64,000 nt of DNA from Eledone cirrhosa (taxonomy: Eukaryota). The notes below the pieces were generated by a model. The model saw only the letters and a list, made by a program, of their open reading frames with translations, was not told the origin of the DNA and did not search any database. Position 1 is the stretch's first letter. Every line of letters begins with the position of its first letter. The position numbers and the translations under genes are program-made. The stretch covers positions 13,578,001-13,642,000 of the forward strand of contig OZ024745.1 in assembly GCA_964016885.1 (NCBI GenBank), given 5' to 3'. Of this stretch, positions 2,580 to 64,000 are shown piece by piece.

Positions 2580-3668
2580 GTGGAGGTCAACCAGGGAGAG
2601 GTTCTTCCAACTGGAATGTGTAAACCCTGGATTGAATTGGATTGGATGGAGGTCAGCCAGGGAGGGGTTCCTCTAACAGGAGTGAGAAGGCCCTGGATTG
2701 GATTGGATGGAGGTCAGCCAGGGAGGGGTTCCTCTAACAGGAGAGAGAAGGCCCTGGATTGGATGGAGGTTAGCCAGGGAGGGGTTCCTCCAACAGGAGA
2801 GAGAAGACCCTGGATTGGATGGAGGTCCACCAGGGAGGGGTTCCTCCAACAGGAGTGAGAAGGCCCTGGATTGGATTGGATGGAGGTCAGCCAGGGAGGG
2901 GTTCCTCCAACAGGAGTGAGAAGGCCCTGGATTGGATGGAGGTCAGCCAGGGAGGGGTTCCTCCAACAGGAGAGAGAAGACCCTGGATTGGATGGAGGTC
3001 CACCAGGGAGGGGTTCCTCCAACAGGAGAGAGAAGACCCTGGATTGGATGGAGGTCAGCCAGGGAGGGGTTCCTCTAACAGGAGTGAGAAGGCCCTGGAT
3101 TGGATGGAGGTCAGCCAGGGAGGGGTTCCTCTAACAGGAGTGAGAAGACCCTGGATTGGATGGAGGTCAGCCAGGGAGGGGTTCCTCTAACAGGAGTGAG
3201 AAGGCCCTGGATTGGATGGAGGTCAGCCAGGGAGGGGTTCCTCCAACAGGAGAGAGAAGACCCTGGATTGGATGGAGGTCCACCAGGGAGGGGTTCCTCC
3301 AACAGGAGTGAGAAGGCCCTGGATTGGATTGGATGGAGGTCAGCCAGGGAGGGGTTCCTCCAACAGGAGTGAGAAGGCCCTGGATTGGATGGAGGTCAGC
3401 CAGGGAGGGGTTCCTCCAACAGGAGAGAGAAGACCCTGGATTGGATGGAGGTCCACCAGGGAGGGGTTCCTCCAACAGGAGAGAGAAGACCCTGGATTGG
3501 ATGGAGGTCAGCCAGGGAGGGGTTCCTCCAACAGGAGAGAGAAGACCCTGGATTGGATGGAGGTCCACCAGGGAGGGGTTCCTCCAACAGGAGAGAGAAG
3601 ACCCTGGATTGGATGGAGGTCAGCCAGGGAGGGGTTCCTCTAACAGGAGTGAGAAGGCCCTGGATTGG
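2580..3668. repeat. 56-bp minisatellite (~19 units; some 61-bp units with an extra ggatt)
   Basis: Unit ggattggatggaggtcagccagggaggggttcctccaacaggagagagaagaccct. Confidence 0.95.
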
Positions 3669-12433: not shown

Positions 12434-13042
12434 CATGGTGGCTGCCAATTCGTTTTCGAGTACGGCCACTACTTTATATCCATGTAGGAGAACCCTACCG
12501 ATGTGCTGAACGAGTGTGACTTTTTAGTCCAGCCAGCGACTTGAAAACTCTGGTACAAACACTACACTTGTAACAATTATTGACACACAGTGCTGGGCCC
12601 ATGGTACCATGTGATGACAAGTGCAGAGAGATCTCCAGATATAAAGCAATGCCTGTGCCATGAAGCTTTTATAGTGAGCAAAGGCACTGCACAAAGCCAG
12701 TCCCACTCTCTTAACCAAGATGATATTTATCAAAAAGAAGAACAAGTCAACATCATTGGATACCATCAGGGTTGCAGGTGTTATATCAGAGTTTTCCTTC
12801 TCATAGAATTCTGCCTTGACAAAGGCTAAGGGGTCATCTCTCCCGGTGATTTTGGATGGCCATTGACTCTTACGAGCTCCTTTGCCCTTTGACAGGTTTT
12901 GTTTTTAGTCCTGCAGGATGTCCAAAGTCACCCTCCTCACCAAGAAACCTTGGTGAGGTTGCCAGTTTAGTCGCCAACGACCCGACCATGGGACAGGTTG
13001 TACTGGGATACATGTTACCAGTAGCACCAACTGGTGACCTGA
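12434..13042 (-). mobile_element. ~610-bp non-autonomous RTE-related element with (TATG)n tail
   Basis: Near-identical inverted copy at 26569-27178. Its 3' end actcg-aaaa-cga(a/g)t-tggcagccaccatg(tatg)n resembles the RTE 3' end. Confidence 0.85.
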
Positions 13043-13080
13043 CATACATACATACATACATACATACATACATACATACA

Positions 13081-13114
<34 letters not shown>

Positions 13115-26438: not shown

Positions 26439-26568
26439 TATATATGTACATACGTACGTATTTATGTATGTATGTATGTATGTATGTATGTATGTATGTA
26501 TGTATGTATGTATGTATGTATGTATGTATGTATGTGTATGTATGTATATATGTATGTATGTATTTATG

Positions 26569-27178
26569 TCAGGTCACCAGTTGGTGCTACTGGTAACATG
26601 TATCCGAGTATAACCTGTCCCATGGTCGGGTCGTTGGCGACTAAACTGGCAACCCCACCAAGGTTTCTTGGTGAGGAGGGTGACTTTGGACATCCTGCAG
26701 GACTAAAAACAAAACCTGTCAAAGGGCAAAGGAGCTCGTAAGTGTCAATGGCCATCCTAAATCACCGGGAGAGATGACCCCTTAGCCTTTGTCAAGGCAG
26801 AATTCTAGGAGAAGGAAAACTCTGATATAACACCTGCAACCCTGATGATATCCAATGATGTTGACTTGTTCTTCTTTTTGGTAAATATCATCTTGGTTAA
26901 GAGAGTGGGACTGGCTTTGTGCAGTGCCTTTGCTCACTATAAAAGCTTCACGGCACAGGCATTGCTTTATATCTGGAGATCTCTCTGCACTTGTCGTCAC
27001 ATGGTACCATGGGCCCAGCACTATGTGTCAATAATTGTCACAAATGTAGTGTTTGTACCAGAGTTTTCAAGTCGCTGGCTGGACTAAAAAGTCACACTCG
27101 TTCAGCGCATCGGTAGGGGTTCTCCTACATGGATATAAAGTAGTGGCCGTACTCGAAAACGAGTTGGCAGCCACCATG
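26569..27178 (+). mobile_element. ~610-bp non-autonomous RTE-related element with (TATG)n tail
   Basis: Inverted copy of 12434-13042, flanked by (TATG)n on both sides. Confidence 0.85.
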
Positions 27179-27941: not shown

Positions 27942-28000
<59 letters not shown>

Positions 28001-28001
<1 letters not shown>

Positions 28002-28335
28002 GTCTAATGGTAGCTAAGATGCTTCCATAGGCGGTATGCCGGTTGAGCACTCTATGCTCCTACGGAGCAGAGTATGATAGAATAGAAAACGAAAAATCAG
28101 TGATGCATCGGAACTCAATTTATTACGAATTACAATTGTTTCCCCGGCGAACAGCTCGAGGTGCGATTTGTGTGTGGACCGACCTGACTCTAGATTCACA
28201 GGTTCCTCGGACACGTCTATTGATTTTGGAGCAGATCCTCTTTCTGGGGTTTCTGACCCTACGGGTCTATATCGTCCACCTTCATCCTCTTTGCGCGTCC
28301 TTGGGTTGGTCACTGGTTAGTGACGTCATCATAAT
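28001..28335. mobile_element. Unclassified ~335-bp interspersed repeat (may extend to ~28431)
   Basis: Near-identical inverted copy at 38770-39104. The tgtctaatgg terminus abuts (TA)n in both copies. Confidence 0.85.
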
Positions 28336-28437
28336 TCTGACCACTGGTAGCAGCCCGCTGACCATCAGGGCGTGAGCTGTCACTTACCTACTGTCCCGTC
28401 GGCAAAATTACTGCTGTGTTTGCCAGATCACACTCCC

Positions 28438-29399: not shown

Positions 29400-30300
29400 G
29401 GAATGCGTGGCGAATAAGCACACACTACTGAAAAATACACATGCAGGGAGTGCGTGAACAGGCCATAATGGAGCATGTCACTGTGGGTGAGATAGAGTGC
29501 CTTATTGATGTATGGTACGGAAGTTGAGCCACCGTGTCCCGGCTCATGCGATGTCGTTGTCTAGGATGATGTACTGAGTCCGATAAGCAGCATAGGCTGC
29601 GGCGACTTACACCACAGGACATACATAGTCAATAAGGTATGGTGTCTGATCCCTTGGACATGCGCTGCCGCTCGGACCGGCGTCCGCTTCCCCACATGCC
29701 TTTAGTTTGGGCTGTCCGGTTGTGTCCATGCGGAGAATGTGCACATTCTCTGGTGTCTGCACGTCATGATAATCTCCGATTTCAGGTTGATCGCATCATC
29801 CTTCAATCTGACTATCTCCATGGCCTCGGATAGGCATAGCCTACACTTCCAATTTCCAGCCGAATATGCATTTACATGTTGAACGATACTCCAGTTGAGA
29901 TCATACAGGGTGCCGTTGTCTTCCAAGTCCCATATTAGGTTCGCCAGCCTAGTGGAGTGTCTCTCGCTCCGATCCTTGAAAGAGTTTGTGTGATTATACA
30001 TCCTCAATTTAAAGGTCGTGGATGTTGCGCCGATGTAGGTGCGCTTGGTGTTGCGTGTGTTAACCACACATTTATATACTAGGCCCTTCCTTAGACATCT
30101 TCCCTGCAGAGGGCATTGTGTGCTCGCTCTGTAGTTGCATGTTCGATCGTTATGTTGCTCATTTCCAACGCTGGGCCATTGGTCTACCACGGCACTCCCT
30201 CGATTCTCTGGGTGTTGTTCTGTCGGTGCGGTGGTTTCCCCTCCGTCATTCAGTTCCGCCTGGCATTCGATTACAGCGTCTTATTATACTTATACCTATA
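29400..30300 (-). mobile_element. Penelope-like element fragment, Naiad-type GIY-YIG endonuclease
   Basis: ORF 29702-30190: CNYR..CPLQGRCL..LVYKC..TYIGAT..FKLRMYNH..SF..STRLA..IW.L..W.I..CRLCLSE..IN.KSE..CRH. Element boundaries are uncertain. Confidence 0.85.
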
Positions 30301-38276: not shown

Positions 38277-38768
38277 AGGGCGGTGAATGGGCAGAGCGTC
38301 ACACACCATGCTCTGCAGCATAGAGTTATTGCCCTTTATGTTCTGAGTTCAAATCCCACCAAGGTTAACTTTGCCTTTCATCCTTACGGGGTCGATAAAA
38401 TAAGTACCAGTAATACACTGGAATAATTGCTGGCCTTGTGCCAAAAGTAGAAACAATTATTGACACAAAGTGAAGTCGTTCTAGCATTTGTCCGACTCTC
38501 GAACGACTTCACTTTGCGTCAATAATTAAAAAGAAATAATTATCGAAACACTGTGAGTGTGGGGAACTGGCAGAGTTGCTTGCCTTGTGCCTAAAGTAGA
38601 AACAGTTATTATTTTAAGGGCAGTAATCGGTAGAGCGTTGGACAACATGCTTTGTGGCATAGAGTTACAGCCCTTTACATTCTGAGCTTAAATCTCTTTC
38701 ACCCTTACGGGGTCGATAAAATAAAGTACCAGTAGCACACTGGGGTCGATCTAATCGACATTCCCCAG
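38277..38768 (+). mobile_element. Cluster of SINE family A copies and fragments
   Basis: Copies at 38277-38460 and ~38560-38768, with a hairpin between them. Confidence 0.85.
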
Positions 38769-38769
38769 T

Positions 38770-39104
38770 ATTATGATGACGTCACTAACCAGTGACCAAC
38801 CCAAGGACGCACAAAGAGGATGAAGGTGGACGATATAGACCCGTAGGGTCAGAAACCCCAGAAAGAGGATCTGCTCCAAAATCAATAGACGTGTCCGAGG
38901 AACCTGTGAATCTAGAGTCAGGTCGGTCCACACACAGATCGCACCTCGAGCTGTTCGCCGGGGAAACAATTGTAATTCGTAATAAATTGAGTTCCGATGC
39001 ATCACTGATTTTTCGTTTTCTATTCTATCACACTCTGCTCCGTAAGAGCATAGAGTGCTCAACCGGCATACCGCCTATGGAAGCATCTTAGCTACCATTA
39101 GACA
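38770..39104. mobile_element. Second copy of the unclassified ~335-bp repeat
   Basis: Reverse complement of 28001-28335. Confidence 0.85.
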
Positions 39105-39137
39105 TACATATATACACACCATTAGACATATATATAT

Positions 39138-39233
<96 letters not shown>

Positions 39234-49597: not shown

Positions 49598-49971
49598 TAG
49601 AGTGAGAAATAAAAGATGAAATAGAAAGATAGAGAGTAAGAAGAGGGTGGGACGGAAAAAAATGAGAAAAAAACAAACGTGCATATTCAGTCACCCACTT
49701 TGGATATATATATACACACAAATGAATATATGAGGGATGAACATCTATACAATTATACATGTGTTCGAAATGCAAAAGACCAAGTTAGCTAGATAGAAAA
49801 ATACTAATTTAACATAATATGGTTTGCCTGTCTCGATTTAAAATAATAAATCAATAAAAATAACAAACCTATATTGGCAATGGCCGTGATACCCGGAAAA
49901 ATTCTAAATTTGTGAAAGTTACTATTCCTGTGCTCTTCTGCGGGTATCCAGGAAAATGCGTATCAATCAGA

Positions 49972-50137
49972 ATACTTAAGAAGACTGAGAAATACGTATT
50001 GTTGAACGCACATGTGTCCCACCGCCTAACTCGTCCCATAGCCGTGCCGCTAAAAATAGCGGCACGGCTATGGGACGAGTTAGGCGGTGGGACACATGTG
50101 CGTTCAACAATACGTATTTCTCAGTCTTCTTAAGTAT
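49972..50137. repeat. Perfect palindrome, 81-bp arms, 4-nt loop
   Basis: 49972-50052 is the exact reverse complement of 50057-50137; loop aaaa. Confidence 0.97.
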
Positions 50138-50206
50138 ATATATATATTTCTTAAGTATATATATATATTTCGTTTCTGAATAAATAGAAAAATAGAAAAA
50201 TGAACA

Positions 50207-50769: not shown

Positions 50770-50776
50770 ACATATA

Positions 50777-51157
50777 TATTTATTAAATGACAGATTAAAG
50801 TTTAAGCAAAGAATCGCTGCTTTCACCCTTAACGGGATCTTCTGAAACTAACAAAGTCAATCTGTAGACGTATTATTTGTTTTTTCCCGTTCTTTGCCAG
50901 CGAACGTTTCCACGAACCAAAGTATCGTCTTCCTGTCTTCCTCCGATTGCAACGTTTTTTGAAATATTCACTTCTGCGTTCACAGATTGACTTTGTTAGT
51001 TTCAGAAGATCCCGTTAAGGGTGAAAGCAGCGATTCTTTGCTTAAACTTTAATCTGTTATTTAATAAATATTTGCTCTACGGTTCTTATATATTTGATAT
51101 ATATTTATCCTTATCGAGCCCTCTTTGGATTTTAGTCTTCAATTTTATTATTATTAC
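50777..51157. mobile_element. Head-to-head inverted pLTR-like pair, each arm with a CAGAAGA-core hammerhead-like fold
   Basis: Arms 50777-50865 and 50982-51070 (89 bp, 1 mismatch seen), with (TA)n on both sides. Confidence 0.8.
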
Positions 51158-51171
51158 TATATATATATATA

Positions 51172-57743: not shown

Positions 57744-60700
57744 ACAGAGACACTCTCTCGTCCTGGTAAAAGAGGTGTAGAGACAGTAGAGATTGCTGGG
57801 GACATCAAGGAATAAACAGAGACACTCTCTCGTCCTGGTAAAAGAGGTGTAGGGACAGCAAGAGATTGCTGTGGACATCAAGGAATAAACAGAGACACTC
57901 TCTCGTCCTGGTAAAAGAGGTGTAGGGACAGCAAGAGATTGCTGTGGACATCAAGGAATAAACAGAGACACTCTCTCGTCCTGGTAAAAGAGGTGTAGGG
58001 ACAGCAAGAGATTGCTGTGGACATCAAGGAATAAACAGAGACACTCTCTCGTCCTGGTAAAAGAGTTGTAGGGACAGCAGTGATTGCTGGGGACATCAAG
58101 GAATAAACAGATACACTCTCTCGTCCTGGTAAAAGGGGTGTAGGGACAGTAGAGATTGCTGGGGACATCAAGGAATAAACAGATACACTCTCTCGTCCTG
58201 GTAAAAGGGGTGTAGGGACAGTAGAGATTGCTGGGGACATCAAGGAATAAACAGATACACTCTCTCGTCCTGGTAAAAGGGGTGTAGGGACAGCAGTGAT
58301 TGCTGGGGACATCAAGGAATAAACAGATACACTCTCTCGTCCTGGTAAAAGGGGTGTAGGGACAGTAGAGATTGCTGGGGACATCAAGGAATAAACAGAT
58401 ACACTCTCTCGTCCTGGTAAAAGGGGTGTAGGGACAGCAGTGATTGCTGGGGACATCAAGGAATAAACAGAAACACTCTCTCGTCCTGGTAAAAGAGTTG
58501 TAGGAAGAGCAGAGATTGCTGGGGACATCAAGGAATAAACAGAGACACTCTCTCGTCCTGGTAAAAGAGTTGTAGGAAGAGCAGAGATTGCTGGGGACAT
58601 CAAGGAATAAACAGAGACACTCTCTCGTCCTGGTAAAAGAGGTGTAGGAAGAGCAGAGATTGCTGGGGACATCAAGGAATAAACAGAAACACTCTCTCGT
58701 CCTGGTAAAAGAGTTGTAGGAAGAGCAGAGATTGCTGGGGACATCAAGGAATAAACAGAGACACTCTCTCGTCCTGGTAAAAGAGGTGTAGGAAGAGCAG
58801 AGATTGCTGGGGACATCAAGGAATAAACAGATACACTCTCTCGTCCTGGTAAAAGAGGTGTAGGGACAGCAGAGATTGCTGGGGACATCAAGGAATAAAC
58901 AGAGACACTCTCTCGTCCTGGTAAAAGAGGTGTAGGGACAGTAGAGATTGCTAGGGACATCAAGGAATAAACAGAGACACTCTCTCGTCCTGGTAAAAGA
59001 GGTGTAGGGACAGCAGAGATTGCTGGGGACATCAAGGAATAAACAGAGACACTCTCTCGTCCTGGTAAAAGAGGTGTAGGAAGAGCAGAGATTGCTGGGG
59101 ACATCAAGGAATAAACAGAAACACTCTCTCGTCCTGGTAAAAGAGTTATAGGAAGAGCAGAGATTGCTGGGGACATCAAGGAATAAACAGAGACACTCTC
59201 TCGTCCTGGTAAAAGAGGTGTAGGGACAGTAGAGATTGTTGGGGACATCAAGGAATAAACAGAGACACTCTCTCATCCAGGTAAAAGAGTTGTAGGAACA
59301 GCAAAGATTGCTGGGGACATCAAGGAATAAACAGAGACACTCTCTCGTCCTGGTAAAAGAGGTGTAGGGACAGTAGAGATTGCTGGGTACATCAAGGAAT
59401 AAACATACACACTCTCTCATCCTGGTAAAAGAGTTGTAGGAACAGCAAAGATTGCTGGGGATATCACGGAATAAACAGAGACACTCTCTCGTCCTGGTAA
59501 AAGAGGTGTAGGGACAGTAGAGATTGCTGGGGACATCAAGGAATAAACAGAGACACTCTCTCGTCCTGGTAAAAGAGGTGTAGGGACAGCAGAGATTGCT
59601 GGGGACATCAAGGAATAAACAGAGACACTCTCTCGTCCTGGTAAAAGAGGTGTAAGGACAGCACAGATTGCTGGGGACATCAAGGAATAAACAGAGACAC
59701 TCTCTCGTCCTGGTAAAAGAGGTGTAGGAAGAGCAGAGATTGCTGGGTACATCAAGGAATAAACAGAGACACTCTCTCGTCCTGGTAAAAGAGGTGTAAG
59801 GACAGCAGAGATTGCTGGGGACATCAAGGAATAAACAGAGACACTCTCTCGTCCTGGTAAAAGAGGTGTAGGGACAGTAGAGATTGCTGGGGACATCAAG
59901 GAATAAACAGAGACACTCTCTCCTCCTGGTAAAAGAGGTGTAGGAAGAGCAGAGATTGCTGGGGACATCAAGGAATAAACAGAGACACCCTCTCGTCCTG
60001 GTAAAAGAGGTGTAGGAAGAGCAGAGATTGCTGGGGACATCAAGGAATAAACAGAGACACTCTCTCGTCCTGGTAAAAGAGGTGTAGGGACAGCAGAGAT
60101 TGTTGGGGACATCAAGGAATAAACAGAGACACTCTCTCGTCCTGGTAAAAGAGGTGTAGGAAGAGCAGATATTGCTGGGGACATCAAGGAATAAACAGAG
60201 ACACTCTCTCGTCCTGGTAAAAGAGGTGTAGGGACAGCAGAGATTGTTGGGGACATCAAGGAATAAACAGAGACACTCTCTCGTCCTGGTAAAAGAGGTG
60301 TAGGAAGAGCAGATATTGCTGGGGACATCAAGGAATAAACAGAGACACTCTCTCGTCCTGGTAAAAGAGGTGTAGGAAGAGCAGAGATTGCTGGGGACAT
60401 CAAGGAATAAACAGAGACAATCTCTCGTCCTGGTAAAAGAGGTGTAGGAACAGCAAAGATTGCTGGGGACATCAAGGAATAAACAGAGACACTCTCTCGA
60501 CCTGGTAAAAGAGGTGAAGGAAGAGCAGAGATTGCTGGGGACATCAAGGAATAAACAGAGACACTCTCTCGTCCTGGTAAAAGAGGTGTAGGGACAGCAC
60601 AGATTGCTGGGGACATCAAGGAATAAACAGAGACACTCTCTCGTCCTGGTAAAAGAGGTGTAAGAACAGCACAGATTACTGGGGACATCAAGGAATAAAC

Positions 60701-63700
60701 AGAGACACTCTCTCGTCCTGGTAAAAGAGGTGTAGGAAGAGCAGAGATTGCTGGGGACATCAAGGAATAAACAGAGACACTCTCTCGTCCTGGTAAAAGA
60801 GGTGTAGGAAGAGCAGAGATTGCTGGGGACATCAAGGAATAAACAGAGACACTCTCTCATCCTGGTAAAAGAGGTGTAGGGACAGCAGAGATTGTTGGGG
60901 ACATCAAGGAATAAACAGAGACACTCTCTCGTCCTGGTAAAAGAGGTGTAGGGACAGCAGAGATTGCTGGGGACATCAAGGAATAAACAGAGACACTCTC
61001 TCGTCCTGGTAAAAGAGGTGTAGGAAGAGCAGAGATTGTTGGGGACATTAAGGAATAAACTGAGACACTCTCTCGTCCTGGTAAAAGAGGTGTAGGGACA
61101 GCAGAGATTGCTGGGGACATCAAGGAATAAGCAGAGACACTCTCTCGTCCTGGTAAAAGAGGTGTAAGAACAGCACAGATTACTGGGGACATCAAGGTAT
61201 AAACAGAGACACTCTCTCGTCCTGGTAAAAGAGGTGTAGGAAGAGCAGAGATTGCTGGGGACATCAAGGAATAAACAGAGACACTCTCTCGTCCTGGAAA
61301 AAGAGGTGTAAGAACAGCACAGATTACTGGGGACATCAAGGAATAAACAGAGACACTCTCTCGTCCTGGTAAAAGAGGTGTAGGAAGAGCAGAGATTGTT
61401 GGGGACATCAAGGAATAAACAGAGACACTCTCTCGTCCTGGTAAAAGAGGTGTAGGGACAGCACAGATTGCTGGGGACATCAAGGAATAAACAGAGACAC
61501 TCTCTCGTCCTGGTAAAAGAGGTGTAGGGACAGTAGATATTGCTGGGGACATCAAGGAATAAACAGAGACACTCTCTCGTCCTGGTAAAAGAGGTGTAAG
61601 GACAGCAGAGATTGCTGGGGACATCAAGGAATAAACAAAGACACTCTCTCGTCCTGGTAAAAGAGGTGTAGGGACAGCAGAGATTGCTGGGGACATCAAG
61701 GAATAAACAGAGACACTCTCTCGTCCTGGTAAAAGAGGTGTAGGGACAGCAGAGATTGCTGGGGACATCAAGGAATAAACAGAGACACTCTCTCGTCCTG
61801 GTAAAAGAGGTGTAAGAACAGCACAGATTACTGGGGACATCAAGGAATAAACAGAGACACTCTCTCGTCCTGGTAACAGAGTTGTAGGGACAGTAGAGAT
61901 TGCTGGGGACATCAAGGAATAAACAGAGACACTCTCTCGACCTGGTAAAAGAGGTGAAGGAAGAGCAGAGATTGCTGGGGACATCAAGGAATAAACAGAG
62001 ACACTCTCTCGTCCTGGTAAAAGAGGTGTAGGGACAGCACAGATTGCTGGGGACATCAAGGAATAAACAGAGACACTCTCTCGTCCTGGTAAAAGAGGTG
62101 TAAGAACAGCACAGATTACTGGGGACATCAAGGAATAAAGAGAGACACTCTCTCGTCCTGGTAAAAGAGGTGTAGGAAGAGCAGAGATTGCTGGGGACAT
62201 CAAGGAATAAACAGAGACACTCTCTCGTCCTGGTAAAAGAGGTGTAGGGACAGCAGAGATTGCTGGGGACATCAAGGAATAAACAGAGACACTCTCTCGT
62301 CCTGGTAAAAGAGGTGTAGGAAGAGCAGAGATTGTTGGGGACATCAAGGAATAAACAGAGACACTCTCTCGTCCTGGTAAAAGAGGTGTAGGGACAGCAG
62401 AGATTGCTGGGGACATCAAGGAATAAACAGAGACACTCTCTCCTCCTGGTAAGAGAGGTGTAGGGAGAGCAGAGATTGCTGGGGACATCAAGGAATAAAC
62501 AGAGACACTCTCTCGTCCTGGTTAAAGAGGTGTAGGCACAGCAGAGATTGCTGGGGACATCAAGGAATAAACAGAGACACTCTCTCGTCTTGGTAAAAGA
62601 GGTGTAGGAAGAGCAAAGATTGCTGGGGACATCAAGGAATAAACAGAGACACTCTCTCGTCCTGGTAAAAGAGGTGTAGGGACAGCAGAGATTGCTGGGG
62701 ACATCAAGGAATAAACAGAGACACTCTCTCGTCCTGGTAAAAGAGGTGTAGGAAGAGCAGAGATTGCTGGGGACATCAAGGAATAAACAGAGACACTCTC
62801 TCATCCTGGTAAAAGAGGTGTAGGAAGAGCAGAGTTTGCTGGGGACATCAAGGAATAAACAGAGACACTCTCTCGTCCTGGTAAAAGAGGTGTAGGAAGA
62901 GCACAGATTGCTGGGGACATCAAGGAATAAACAGATACACTCTCTCGTCCTGGTAAAAGGGGTGTAGGGACAGCAGAGATTGCTGGGGACATCAAGGAAT
63001 AAACAGAGACAATCTCTCGTCTTGGTAAAAGAGGTGTAGGAAGAGCAGAGATTGCTGGTGACATCAAGGAATAAACAGAGATACACTCTCGTCCTGGTAA
63101 AAGAGGTGTAGGAAGAGCAACGATTGCTGGCGACATCAAGGAATAAACAGAGACGCTCTCTCTTCCTGGTAAAAGAGGTGTAGGGACAGCAGAGATTGCT
63201 GGGGACATCAAAGAATAAACAGAGACACTCTCTCGTCCTGGTAAAAGAGTTGTAGGGACAGTAGAGATTGCTGTGGACATCAAGGAATAAACAGAGACAC
63301 TCTCTCGTCCTGGTAGAAGAGGTGTAGGAAGAGGAGAGATTGCTGGGGACATCAAGGAATAAACAGAGACACTCTCTCGTCCTGGTAAAAGAGGTGTAGT
63401 GACAGTACAGATTGCTGGGGACATCAAGGAATAAACAGAGACACTCTCTCCTCCTGGTAAAAGAGGTGTAGGAAGAGCAGAGATTGCAGGGGGCATCAAG
63501 GAATAAACAGAGACACCCTCTCGTCCTGGTAAAAGAGGTGTAGGAAGAGCAGAGATTGCTGGGGACATCAAGGAATAAACAGAGACACTCTCTCGTCCTG
63601 GTAAAAGAGGTGTAGGGACAGCAGAGATTGTTGGGGACATCAAGGAATAAACAGAGACACTCTCTCGTCCTGGTAAAAGAGGTGTAGGAAGAGCAGATAT

Positions 63701-64000
63701 TGCTGGGGACATCAAGGAATAAACAGAGACACTCTCTCGTCCTGGTAAAAGAGGTGTAGGGACAGCAGAGATTGTTGGGGACATCAAGGAATAAACAGAG
63801 ACACTCTCTCGTCCTGGTAAAAGAGGTGTAGGAAGAGCAGATATTGCTGGGGACATCAAGGAATAAACAGAGACACTCTCTCGTCCTGGTAAAAGAGGTG
63901 TAGGAAGAGCAGAGATTGCTGGGGACATCAAGGAATAAACAGAGACAATCTCTCGTCCTGGTAAAAGAGGTGTAGGAACAGCAAAGATTGCTGGGGACAT
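57744..64000. repeat. 72-bp satellite array (~87 units, runs off the window end)
   Basis: Unit acagagacactctctcgtcctggtaaaagaggtgtagggacagcagagattgctggggacatcaaggaataa. Three 73-bp units occur near the left edge. Confidence 0.98.

What the first reader, a model, noticed from the sequence alone, without database searches (positions are those of the whole stretch)
50777..51070. Atypical CAGAAGA-core hammerhead with covarying stems, duplicated head-to-head
Seen: acagatt..agttt-CAGAAGA-tccc-gttaa-gggt-GAAA-gca..tgc-TT-aaact..aatctgt, giving an extended stem I and a real stem III. The diverged copy at 1-60 keeps CAGAAGA and the T.T base of stem II while changing pairs (ccc/ggg to ctt/gag; stem III gcaga/tttgc). 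The inverted arm starts exactly at the base of stem I. Inference: a conserved U4A core variant, possibly undescribed.
Basis: partly seen in the sequence, partly recalled or inferred. Interest (0 to 1): 0.7.

Follow-up and report, generated by a model that had tools for sequence, protein, structure and literature searches.

The report
Altered hammerhead ending a Penelope retrotransposon
This is the truncated, folded-back end of a very abundant jumping gene whose hammerhead-shaped RNA carries an A where working hammerhead ribozymes have a U; older sister families kept the A, the stems and the rest of the core, so the shape is likely still needed and is predicted to cut itself only slowly, while the head-to-head duplication is an ordinary by-product of insertion.

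Summary
The motif is real. 50867-51160(+) is the 5'-truncated end of a young Penelope-like retroelement with Hydra-clade motifs (713-aa ORF). 50776-50865(-) is the inverted copy usual for these elements. The core reads A at position 4 in 18,366 of 18,547 exact genome matches (99%) and in 24 of 29 older copies picked without a motif filter. Between young and old families, 0 of 40 paired positions changed, against 6 of 23 loop and 15 of 52 upstream positions, so the fold was kept while it carried A4. The ccc/ggg to ctt/gag change at 1-60 is decay of one copy (0 of 39 old copies share it). U.U at the base of stem II is a published Hydra trait. The arm start at stem I is not general (2 of 26 arms). 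One true compensatory pair closes stem I. Cleavage is untested; copies show no excess of ends at the cut site, and neither does a canonical-core family. I found no natural U4A in the papers searched; U4C is known. This scan has already noted the same family at least six times in this genome.

The parts
50776..50865 (-). Inverted, 5'-truncated copy of the element's 3' end; holds a complete A4 hammerhead motif (core C3 at 50844) and stops at the element's first 3' terminus, against (TA)n
   Evidence: 89 of 90 identical to 50982-51071; terminus shared with most arms at +68 from C3
50866..50870 (.). Inversion junction; the last bases are shared between the inverted arm and the start of the forward copy
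   Evidence: forward match to the element begins at 50867
50867..50981 (+). 3' UTR remnant of the element, the spacer between the two arms
   Evidence: 50867-51071 is 95.6% identical to nt 3039-3243 of a full unit
50982..51057 (+). Type I hammerhead-shaped motif: extended stem I with a 9x2 internal loop, 3-bp stem II on a U.U pair, 5-bp stem III; predicted cut between 51043 and 51044 (CUU)
   Evidence: sequence; pairing and energies; conservation
51003..51009 (+). Core CAGAAGA; 51004 is A4, canonical U4
51058..51071 (+). Last 14 nt up to the first 3' terminus of insertions (+68 from C3)
51072..51160 (+). About 89-nt 'tail': start of the next unit (5' leader, ending about 40 nt before the ATG in full copies); second 3' terminus, followed by (TA)n
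   Evidence: 98.9% to nt 1-88 of the unit; context in L092, L094, L095
2..157 (+). Decayed copy of an older sister subfamily: A4 core (C3 at 4), stems II and III, 3' strands of stem I and tail; the 5' strand of stem I is mostly lost
   Evidence: 77% to the young copy; 79-85% to its best genome matches; upstream sequence in L061
36632..36718 (+). Tail-only fragment of the young family
   Evidence: 96.6%; sequence

Best explanation
The locus is the truncated 3' end of a young, very abundant Penelope-like retroelement plus an inverted copy of that end, and its hammerhead motif is likely a slowed ribozyme that selection still keeps. Shown: the motif sits about 0.9 kb after a 713-aa RT plus GIY-YIG-type ORF; A4 is fixed in the young family and in older subfamilies; stems and core did not change while loops and flanks did; insertions end 28 and about 116 nt past the predicted cut, so they were copied from RNA that was not cut at that hammerhead. 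Inferred: A4 weakens the U-turn and, with U11.1, favours a competing UUUCA/UGAAA hairpin, so most tandem transcripts would stay whole and serve as templates for reverse transcription that starts downstream of the motif. A slow, probably protein-assisted cut would act on a minority of transcripts or late in the cycle. The inverted arm would come from a template switch during insertion; a transcript through this copy would pair the two arms in a 90-bp hairpin and would not fold as a ribozyme.
For: Linked ORF: 8 of 10 fetched long loci hold the 713-aa frame, mean pairwise DNA identity 98.2%, flanked by this motif upstream and downstream (unit 3,243 nt). Hydra motifs by inspection: RWR, DKT, CxCx5C, CxxC, CxH, (TA)n targets. 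A4: 18,366 vs 181; 24 of 29 unfiltered old copies. Old copies link to ORF pieces of 55-79% aa identity over the well-aligned stretches (L042, L046). Young vs old majority bases: stems 0 of 40, core 0 of 12, loops 6 of 23, 5' flank 15 of 52 (Fisher 0.0015 and 0.00009). N7, the free core position, is the one that varies (A 16, U 10, G 3 of 29). Terminal stem I pair: C-G 8, U-A 8, CxA 2, U.G 1, AxA 1 of 20, after dropping one junction copy, L179. Competing hairpin pair probabilities 0.20-0.40 with A4, 0.00-0.02 with U4. A natural U4C lowers activity in vitro yet supports viroid infection (PMC3088659). The PAc hammerhead cuts only with its protein, and uncut RNA is the main insertion substrate (PMC11167929).
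Against: No cleavage data. In a pairwise mutagenesis, changes in the CUGA turn other than the C3-G8 swap gave low activity with no rescue (PMC9901934). A4 comes with a U.U pair and a CUU triplet; CUU being a weak triplet is recalled. The hammerhead fold lies 5.2 kcal/mol above the minimum, 4.9 with U4, so A4 changes that gap little. No excess of copies starting at the cut site: 167, against 117, 156 and 187 at three nearby positions, plus 79 stem I fold-backs, on 34,320 read-through copies. The old set was partly chosen by core-bearing patterns, so its core count is partly built in; one search is the unfiltered check. The compensatory pair is one event on a tree, and the subfamily tree was poorly resolved.
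Confidence: 0.5

Rival explanations
1. The ribozyme is dead and the fold is kept only as a handle for the element's protein, or as a ruler that sets the two reverse-transcription start sites downstream.
For: U-turn mutants are near inactive in PMC9901934. Catalytic mutants of the PAc hammerhead still insert in vitro. No DNA footprint at the cut site. The distal 7-bp stem I is the only helix that is nearly always formed (0.72-1.0), and it carries the one compensatory change.
Against: G5, A6, G8, A9, G12, A13, A14 and the 15.1-16.1 pair keep their majority base in old copies while N7 varies, as catalysis would require. A canonical-core family shows the same 0.7% rate of starts at its cut site (34 on 4,732), so the missing footprint does not single out A4.
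Confidence: 0.3
2. The A4 core is fully compensated, for instance by a contact between loop II and the stem I internal loop, and cuts at ordinary speed as a monomer.
For: Stem III is a real 5-bp helix and stem I has an internal loop of the kind used for tertiary contacts (recalled for Schistosoma-type hammerheads). PMC3088659 suggests that tertiary contacts offset core variants.
Against: Loop II and the internal loop are the parts that changed between subfamilies. Tens of thousands of insertions read through the site uncut. No rescue of CUGA mutants by a second change.
Confidence: 0.12
3. The motif is a neutral relic: U4A killed it in a master copy and the sequence hitchhiked to high copy number.
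For: High copy number alone shows no selection (copies are 98% alike). Naiad elements spread without a canonical hammerhead. Other core changes occur in neighbouring families of this genome.
Against: 0 of 40 paired positions changed between young and old families, against 15 of 52 in the adjacent flank and 6 of 23 in loops, with A4 in both.
Confidence: 0.08

Closest known systems
Hydra-clade Penelope-like elements and their 3' hammerheads (Craig et al. 2021, PMC8557442; section 11, File S2, part of File S7 seen)
   Same: Single ORF with C-terminal GIY-YIG-type domain, DKT, CxCx5C linker, CxxC and CxH, (TA)n targets, partial tandems, inverted 5'-truncated copy, tail at one end. U.U at the base of stem II in 14 of 26 rows, U at the cut site in 10 of 26.
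   Different: All 26 rows read CUGA (their descriptor asked for the canonical core); here CAGA. Stem III has 5 bp and a 7-nt non-palindromic loop instead of a short palindrome. RWR for RWK; unit 3.24 kb; tail about 89 nt instead of 30-40.
Minimal and variant hammerheads of Penelope-like elements (Cervera and De la Pena 2014, PMC4209133; parts 1-2 of 4, one of two supplements searched)
   Same: Type I motif in the pLTR; pairs on opposite strands 100-700 bp apart already described; a family-wide core variant (U3-A8) already described.
   Different: No U4A named in the text seen or in the supplement searched. Metazoan motifs there need dimers; this one has a monomer-size stem III.
Natural hammerhead core variants (Perreault et al. 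2011, PMC3088659; viroid U4C cited there; A6C in PMC7151607)
   Same: Position 4 can vary in nature (U4C); U10.1-U11.1 is a known active variant.
   Different: Those are rare single examples with a pyrimidine kept at 4; here a purine is fixed in over 18,000 exact matches and several subfamilies. Figures 5, S6 and S7 are pictures I could not see.
PAc Poseidon element of Anolis (Frangieh et al. 2024, PMC11167929; parts 1-2 of 4)
   Same: Two 3' termini that define a tail; insertion from uncut RNA.
   Different: PAc cutting was shown and is protein-assisted; nothing is shown here. Different clade.

Membership tests
Type I hammerhead ribozyme | Core C3 U4 G5 A6 N7 G8 A9 | tested here: not met
   A at position 4 in this copy and 99% of family matches; the other six fit
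Type I hammerhead ribozyme | G12 A13 A14, A15.1-U16.1 pair, H17 | tested here: met
   51023-26, U51042, U51043; majority bases in old copies
Type I hammerhead ribozyme | Three helices around the core, stem I open | tested here: met
   7+5, 3 and 5 bp can pair; 0 of 40 paired positions differ between families; not the minimum-energy fold
Type I hammerhead ribozyme | G10.1-C11.1 pair | tested here: not met
   U.U; a known active natural variant, common in Hydra elements
Type I hammerhead ribozyme | Covariation in the helices | tested here: inconclusive
   One compensatory change at the end of stem I; none in stems II or III
Type I hammerhead ribozyme | Match to an Rfam hammerhead model | tested here: not met
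   None at gathering score in the window or at E<=10 in 50770-51160. Canonical cores elsewhere in the window were not hit at gathering score either.
Type I hammerhead ribozyme | Site-specific self-cleavage | not testable with these tools
   No assay possible; no RNA run listed
Type I hammerhead ribozyme | Loop I - loop II tertiary contact | not tested
   No structure model was built
Penelope-like element, Hydra clade | Single ORF with RT and C-terminal GIY-YIG endonuclease | tested here: met
   713-aa frame with GLYRDD and VYKC...AYIG by inspection; Pfam gave no relevant hit; by-eye likeness to Hydra-1_Obim
Penelope-like element, Hydra clade | DKT, CxCx5C linker, CxxC and CxH, RWK | tested here: met
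   HSDKTG, CNCRNRADC, CDLC, CKH; RWR in place of RWK
Penelope-like element, Hydra clade | pLTR tandems, inverted 5'-truncated copy, tail, (TA)n target | tested here: met
Penelope-like element, Hydra clade | Canonical hammerhead near the 3' end | tested here: not met
   Motif is at the expected place but has A4
Penelope-like element, Hydra clade | Generally under 3 kb | tested here: not met
   Unit 3,243 nt; a loose trait in the source
Penelope-like element, Hydra clade | Placement in the Hydra clade on an RT tree | not tested
   Reference proteins were not available as tool sequences

The most novel reading that the evidence does not exclude
A natural A4 hammerhead that still cleaves and is built as a switch: A4 pairs with U11.1 in an off-state hairpin that keeps the tandem transcript whole for reverse transcription, and the element's own protein refolds it to cut. 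The A itself could have arisen in one step by fold-back at the TTC-N-GAA near-palindrome centred on position 4, where inversion junctions of this family are common.
Probability: 0.2. Interest if true: 0.7.

Novelty: new variant of a known kind. Interest (0 to 1): 0.4.

Why it matters
U4 is part of the consensus core that hammerhead search patterns require, so an A4 family with over 18,000 exact copies is invisible to them, and more such families may be hidden. Whether Penelope-like elements need their hammerhead to cut is an open question. This family spread widely with a change expected to cripple the U-turn, yet kept the fold and the catalytic bases, which makes a two-construct assay (A4 against U4) a direct test. 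The particular window copy adds nothing beyond the family: it is one dead insertion among tens of thousands.

Tried and rejected
Rfam: no hammerhead hit; the whole-window E-value list was filled by microsatellite matches to miRNA models. Pfam: no RT or GIY-YIG hit for the ORF. RNA evidence: no RNA holder listed. Contigs of four runs laid on 50900-51160 show no listed variant at 51004; the two other-organism runs had only 6 and 14 records laid and are no evidence of spread. Canonical-core sister subfamily: not found. One strict pattern gave 0. A loose one gave 1,276, but 21 of the 30 inspected are fold-back palindromes centred on position 4 (arm match at least 30 of 40), which read CTGA on one strand and lack stem I. 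Second independent A4 family: one pattern (stem III starting ACA) gave 617 hits; the 30 inspected are this family, fold-backs, scattered copies of canonical families or unrelated hits, so none was confirmed. Cleavage footprint in DNA: 0.7% of copies start at the cut site in both the A4 family and a canonical-core family. The canonical family is higher against its own controls (34 vs 12 and 4), but 26 of the 34 are likely stem I fold-backs (not inspected), so the test does not separate the families. Dimer model for the two arms: rejected, as they are antisense and pair with each other (-162.7 kcal/mol). Subfamily tree: too poorly resolved to count events. Ambros and Flores 1998 and Nelson and Uhlenbeck 2008 were not held, so measured U4A rates remain unseen.

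Full report
1. Observation. The inverted arm 50776-50865 matches 50982-51071 at 89 of 90 bases. Both ends of the 385-nt unit abut (TA)n. The copy at 2-157 is 77% identical. Rfam finds no hammerhead. The 76-nt motif folds no better than shuffles (z -0.63), and the hammerhead fold is 5.2 kcal/mol above the minimum, so folding energy alone does not support it; the comparative data do.

2. What it belongs to. The window lies in a 3.0-Gb genome. Close copies continue upstream into a coding frame. Of 10 long loci fetched, 8 hold a 713-aa frame, 98.2% identical on average. In tandem loci the motif stands both before and after the frame, with a unit of 3,243 nt. By inspection the protein has RWR, DKT, CxCx5C, CxxC and CxH, the marks that Craig et al. 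give for the Hydra clade of Penelope-like elements (PMC8557442, section 11), and it resembles Hydra-1_Obim by eye. Pfam gave no relevant hit and no tree was built. 50867-51071 is the last 205 nt of the unit; 51072-51160 is the start of the next unit, the 'tail'. Arms end mostly at +68 or +156 from C3, two termini as in the PAc element (PMC11167929).

3. The duplication. An inverted 5'-truncated copy at the 5' end, with the tail at one end only, is described as typical of these elements, and opposite-strand pairs 100-700 bp apart are described in PMC4209133. Arm starts are scattered: 2 of 26 within -400 to +40 of C3 fall within 5 nt of the stem I base, one being this copy (counted, loci L001-L030 and L062-L101). 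A transcript through the locus would pair the arms (-162.7 kcal/mol), so the pair is not a ribozyme dimer.

4. Is A4 fixed? Exact 30-mers: 18,366 with A, 181 with another base. A looser A4 pattern gives 33,489, control 26. For older subfamilies, recognised by a different loop III, 94 of the first 100 of 204 matches have A. Among 29 old copies picked by BLAST with no motif filter, 24 have A, 4 T and 1 G; two of the T are fold-back junctions. The 1,276 'CTGA' matches are mostly such junctions: 21 of 30 inspected are palindromes centred on position 4, because TTC-A-GAA is nearly self-complementary. Related families in the genome keep U4: a family with a 53% identical ORF has UUGAUAA, the known U3-A8 form, and an abundant family of similar shape has CUGAUGA (I did not link that one to an ORF).

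5. Is the fold under selection? Old copies are tied to decayed ORF pieces of 55-79% aa identity over their well-aligned stretches. Majority bases of 40 sampled young copies (of 112) against 33 old copies differ at 0 of 40 paired positions, 0 of 12 fixed core positions, 6 of 23 loop positions and 15 of 52 upstream positions (Fisher 0.0015 and 0.00009). I set aside the 3' flank count because (TA)n and shifts spoil it. The core count is partly built in by the patterns; the unfiltered set agrees, except that 51013 reads T 16, C 11, which still pairs with G and fits CpG decay. N7 is A or U. One compensatory change closes stem I: C-G 8, U-A 8, mismatch or wobble 4, of 20 (L179 dropped as a junction); it is one event, not sixteen.

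6. Does it cut? Untested. For slowing: mutants of the CUGA turn had low activity and no rescue (PMC9901934, passages); natural U4C is much weaker in vitro but works in vivo (PMC3088659); A4 raises a competing UUUCA/UGAAA hairpin from 0.00-0.02 to 0.20-0.40. Copies starting at the cut site number 167, with 117, 156 and 187 at control positions, plus 79 stem I fold-backs, on 34,320 read-through copies. A canonical-core family has the same 0.7% (34 on 4,732; controls 12 and 4). Insertion from uncut RNA is therefore common to both and says little about A4. No RNA run was listed.

7. Reading. Most likely a slowed, still selected hammerhead on a template that is mostly left whole (0.5); a dead fold kept as a protein handle (0.3); fully compensated (0.12); neutral relic (0.08).

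8. Literature. In File S2 of PMC8557442 all 26 Hydra rows have CUGA, 14 have U.U and 10 have U at the cut site; the descriptor used asks for the canonical core. 'hammerhead' with 'U4A' gave 0 papers; searches listed nothing naming a natural A4. Five CAGA strings were absent from 11 supplement files of PMC3088659 and from the one searchable supplement of PMC4209133 (file 1 not searched). Seen: PMC4209133 and PMC11167929, parts 1-2 of 4; PMC8557442, passages, section 11, supplement parts 1, 2 and 52 of 59; PMC3088659, abstract, passages, one part; passages only of PMC9901934, PMC7151607, PMC6155905, PMC13725137, PMC11014351 and bioRxiv 2026.07.22.740005. Not seen: Ambros and Flores 1998, Nelson and Uhlenbeck 2008, Ruffner 1990, Lunse 2017 (recalled), figures of all papers, bioRxiv supplements. 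An earlier U4A could lie there.

9. Verdict. A new variant of a known kind: element class, duplication, tail and U.U pair are known; a lineage-wide A4 core under purifying selection was not found in print. Earlier notes of this scan describe the same family at least six times in this genome; they are not independent support. My reading was recorded before I saw them. Interest 0.4.

Noticed in passing
G000; e.g. L135, L138, L157 (centres near 1500): Fold-back inversions centred exactly on core position 4 are common (21 of 30 inspected among 1,276 CTGA-type hits). They give a canonical-looking core on one strand without stem I, a trap for motif counts and a possible one-step route from U4 to A4.
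   Followed up: partly
L102:2955-3085(+), same type in L099/L102(-), L134, L185: A related family (ORF 53% identical) ends in a hammerhead with a U3-A8 core, a very long stem II and a GUC site; 4 distinct copies seen.
   Followed up: partly
L096 near 1021(+), L194 near 1672 on the - strand: Two copies of another minimal hammerhead with a CCGAAGA core (U4C), long stem II and palindromic stem III. Position 4 may be labile in more families of this genome.
   Followed up: no
window 5310(+), 50331(+), 37179(-), 49593(-), 52069(-): Canonical CUGANGA...GAAA cores of other repeat families; the first three pass a stem I/III pairing filter.
   Followed up: no
window 29705-30139(-): Endonuclease-region fragment 41% identical to the 713-aa protein: another Hydra-like family.
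   Followed up: no
window about 49968-50138: Long near-perfect palindrome (Rfam miRNA-like score below threshold), probably another fold-back insertion.
   Followed up: no
window 57865-64000: Tandem array of a 72-nt unit, about 82 copies, 92-97% alike.
   Followed up: no
window 12493-13112 / 26499-27118 and 27942-28339 / 38766-39163: Long inverted repeat pairs, 94-95% complementary, 10-13 kb apart.
   Followed up: no
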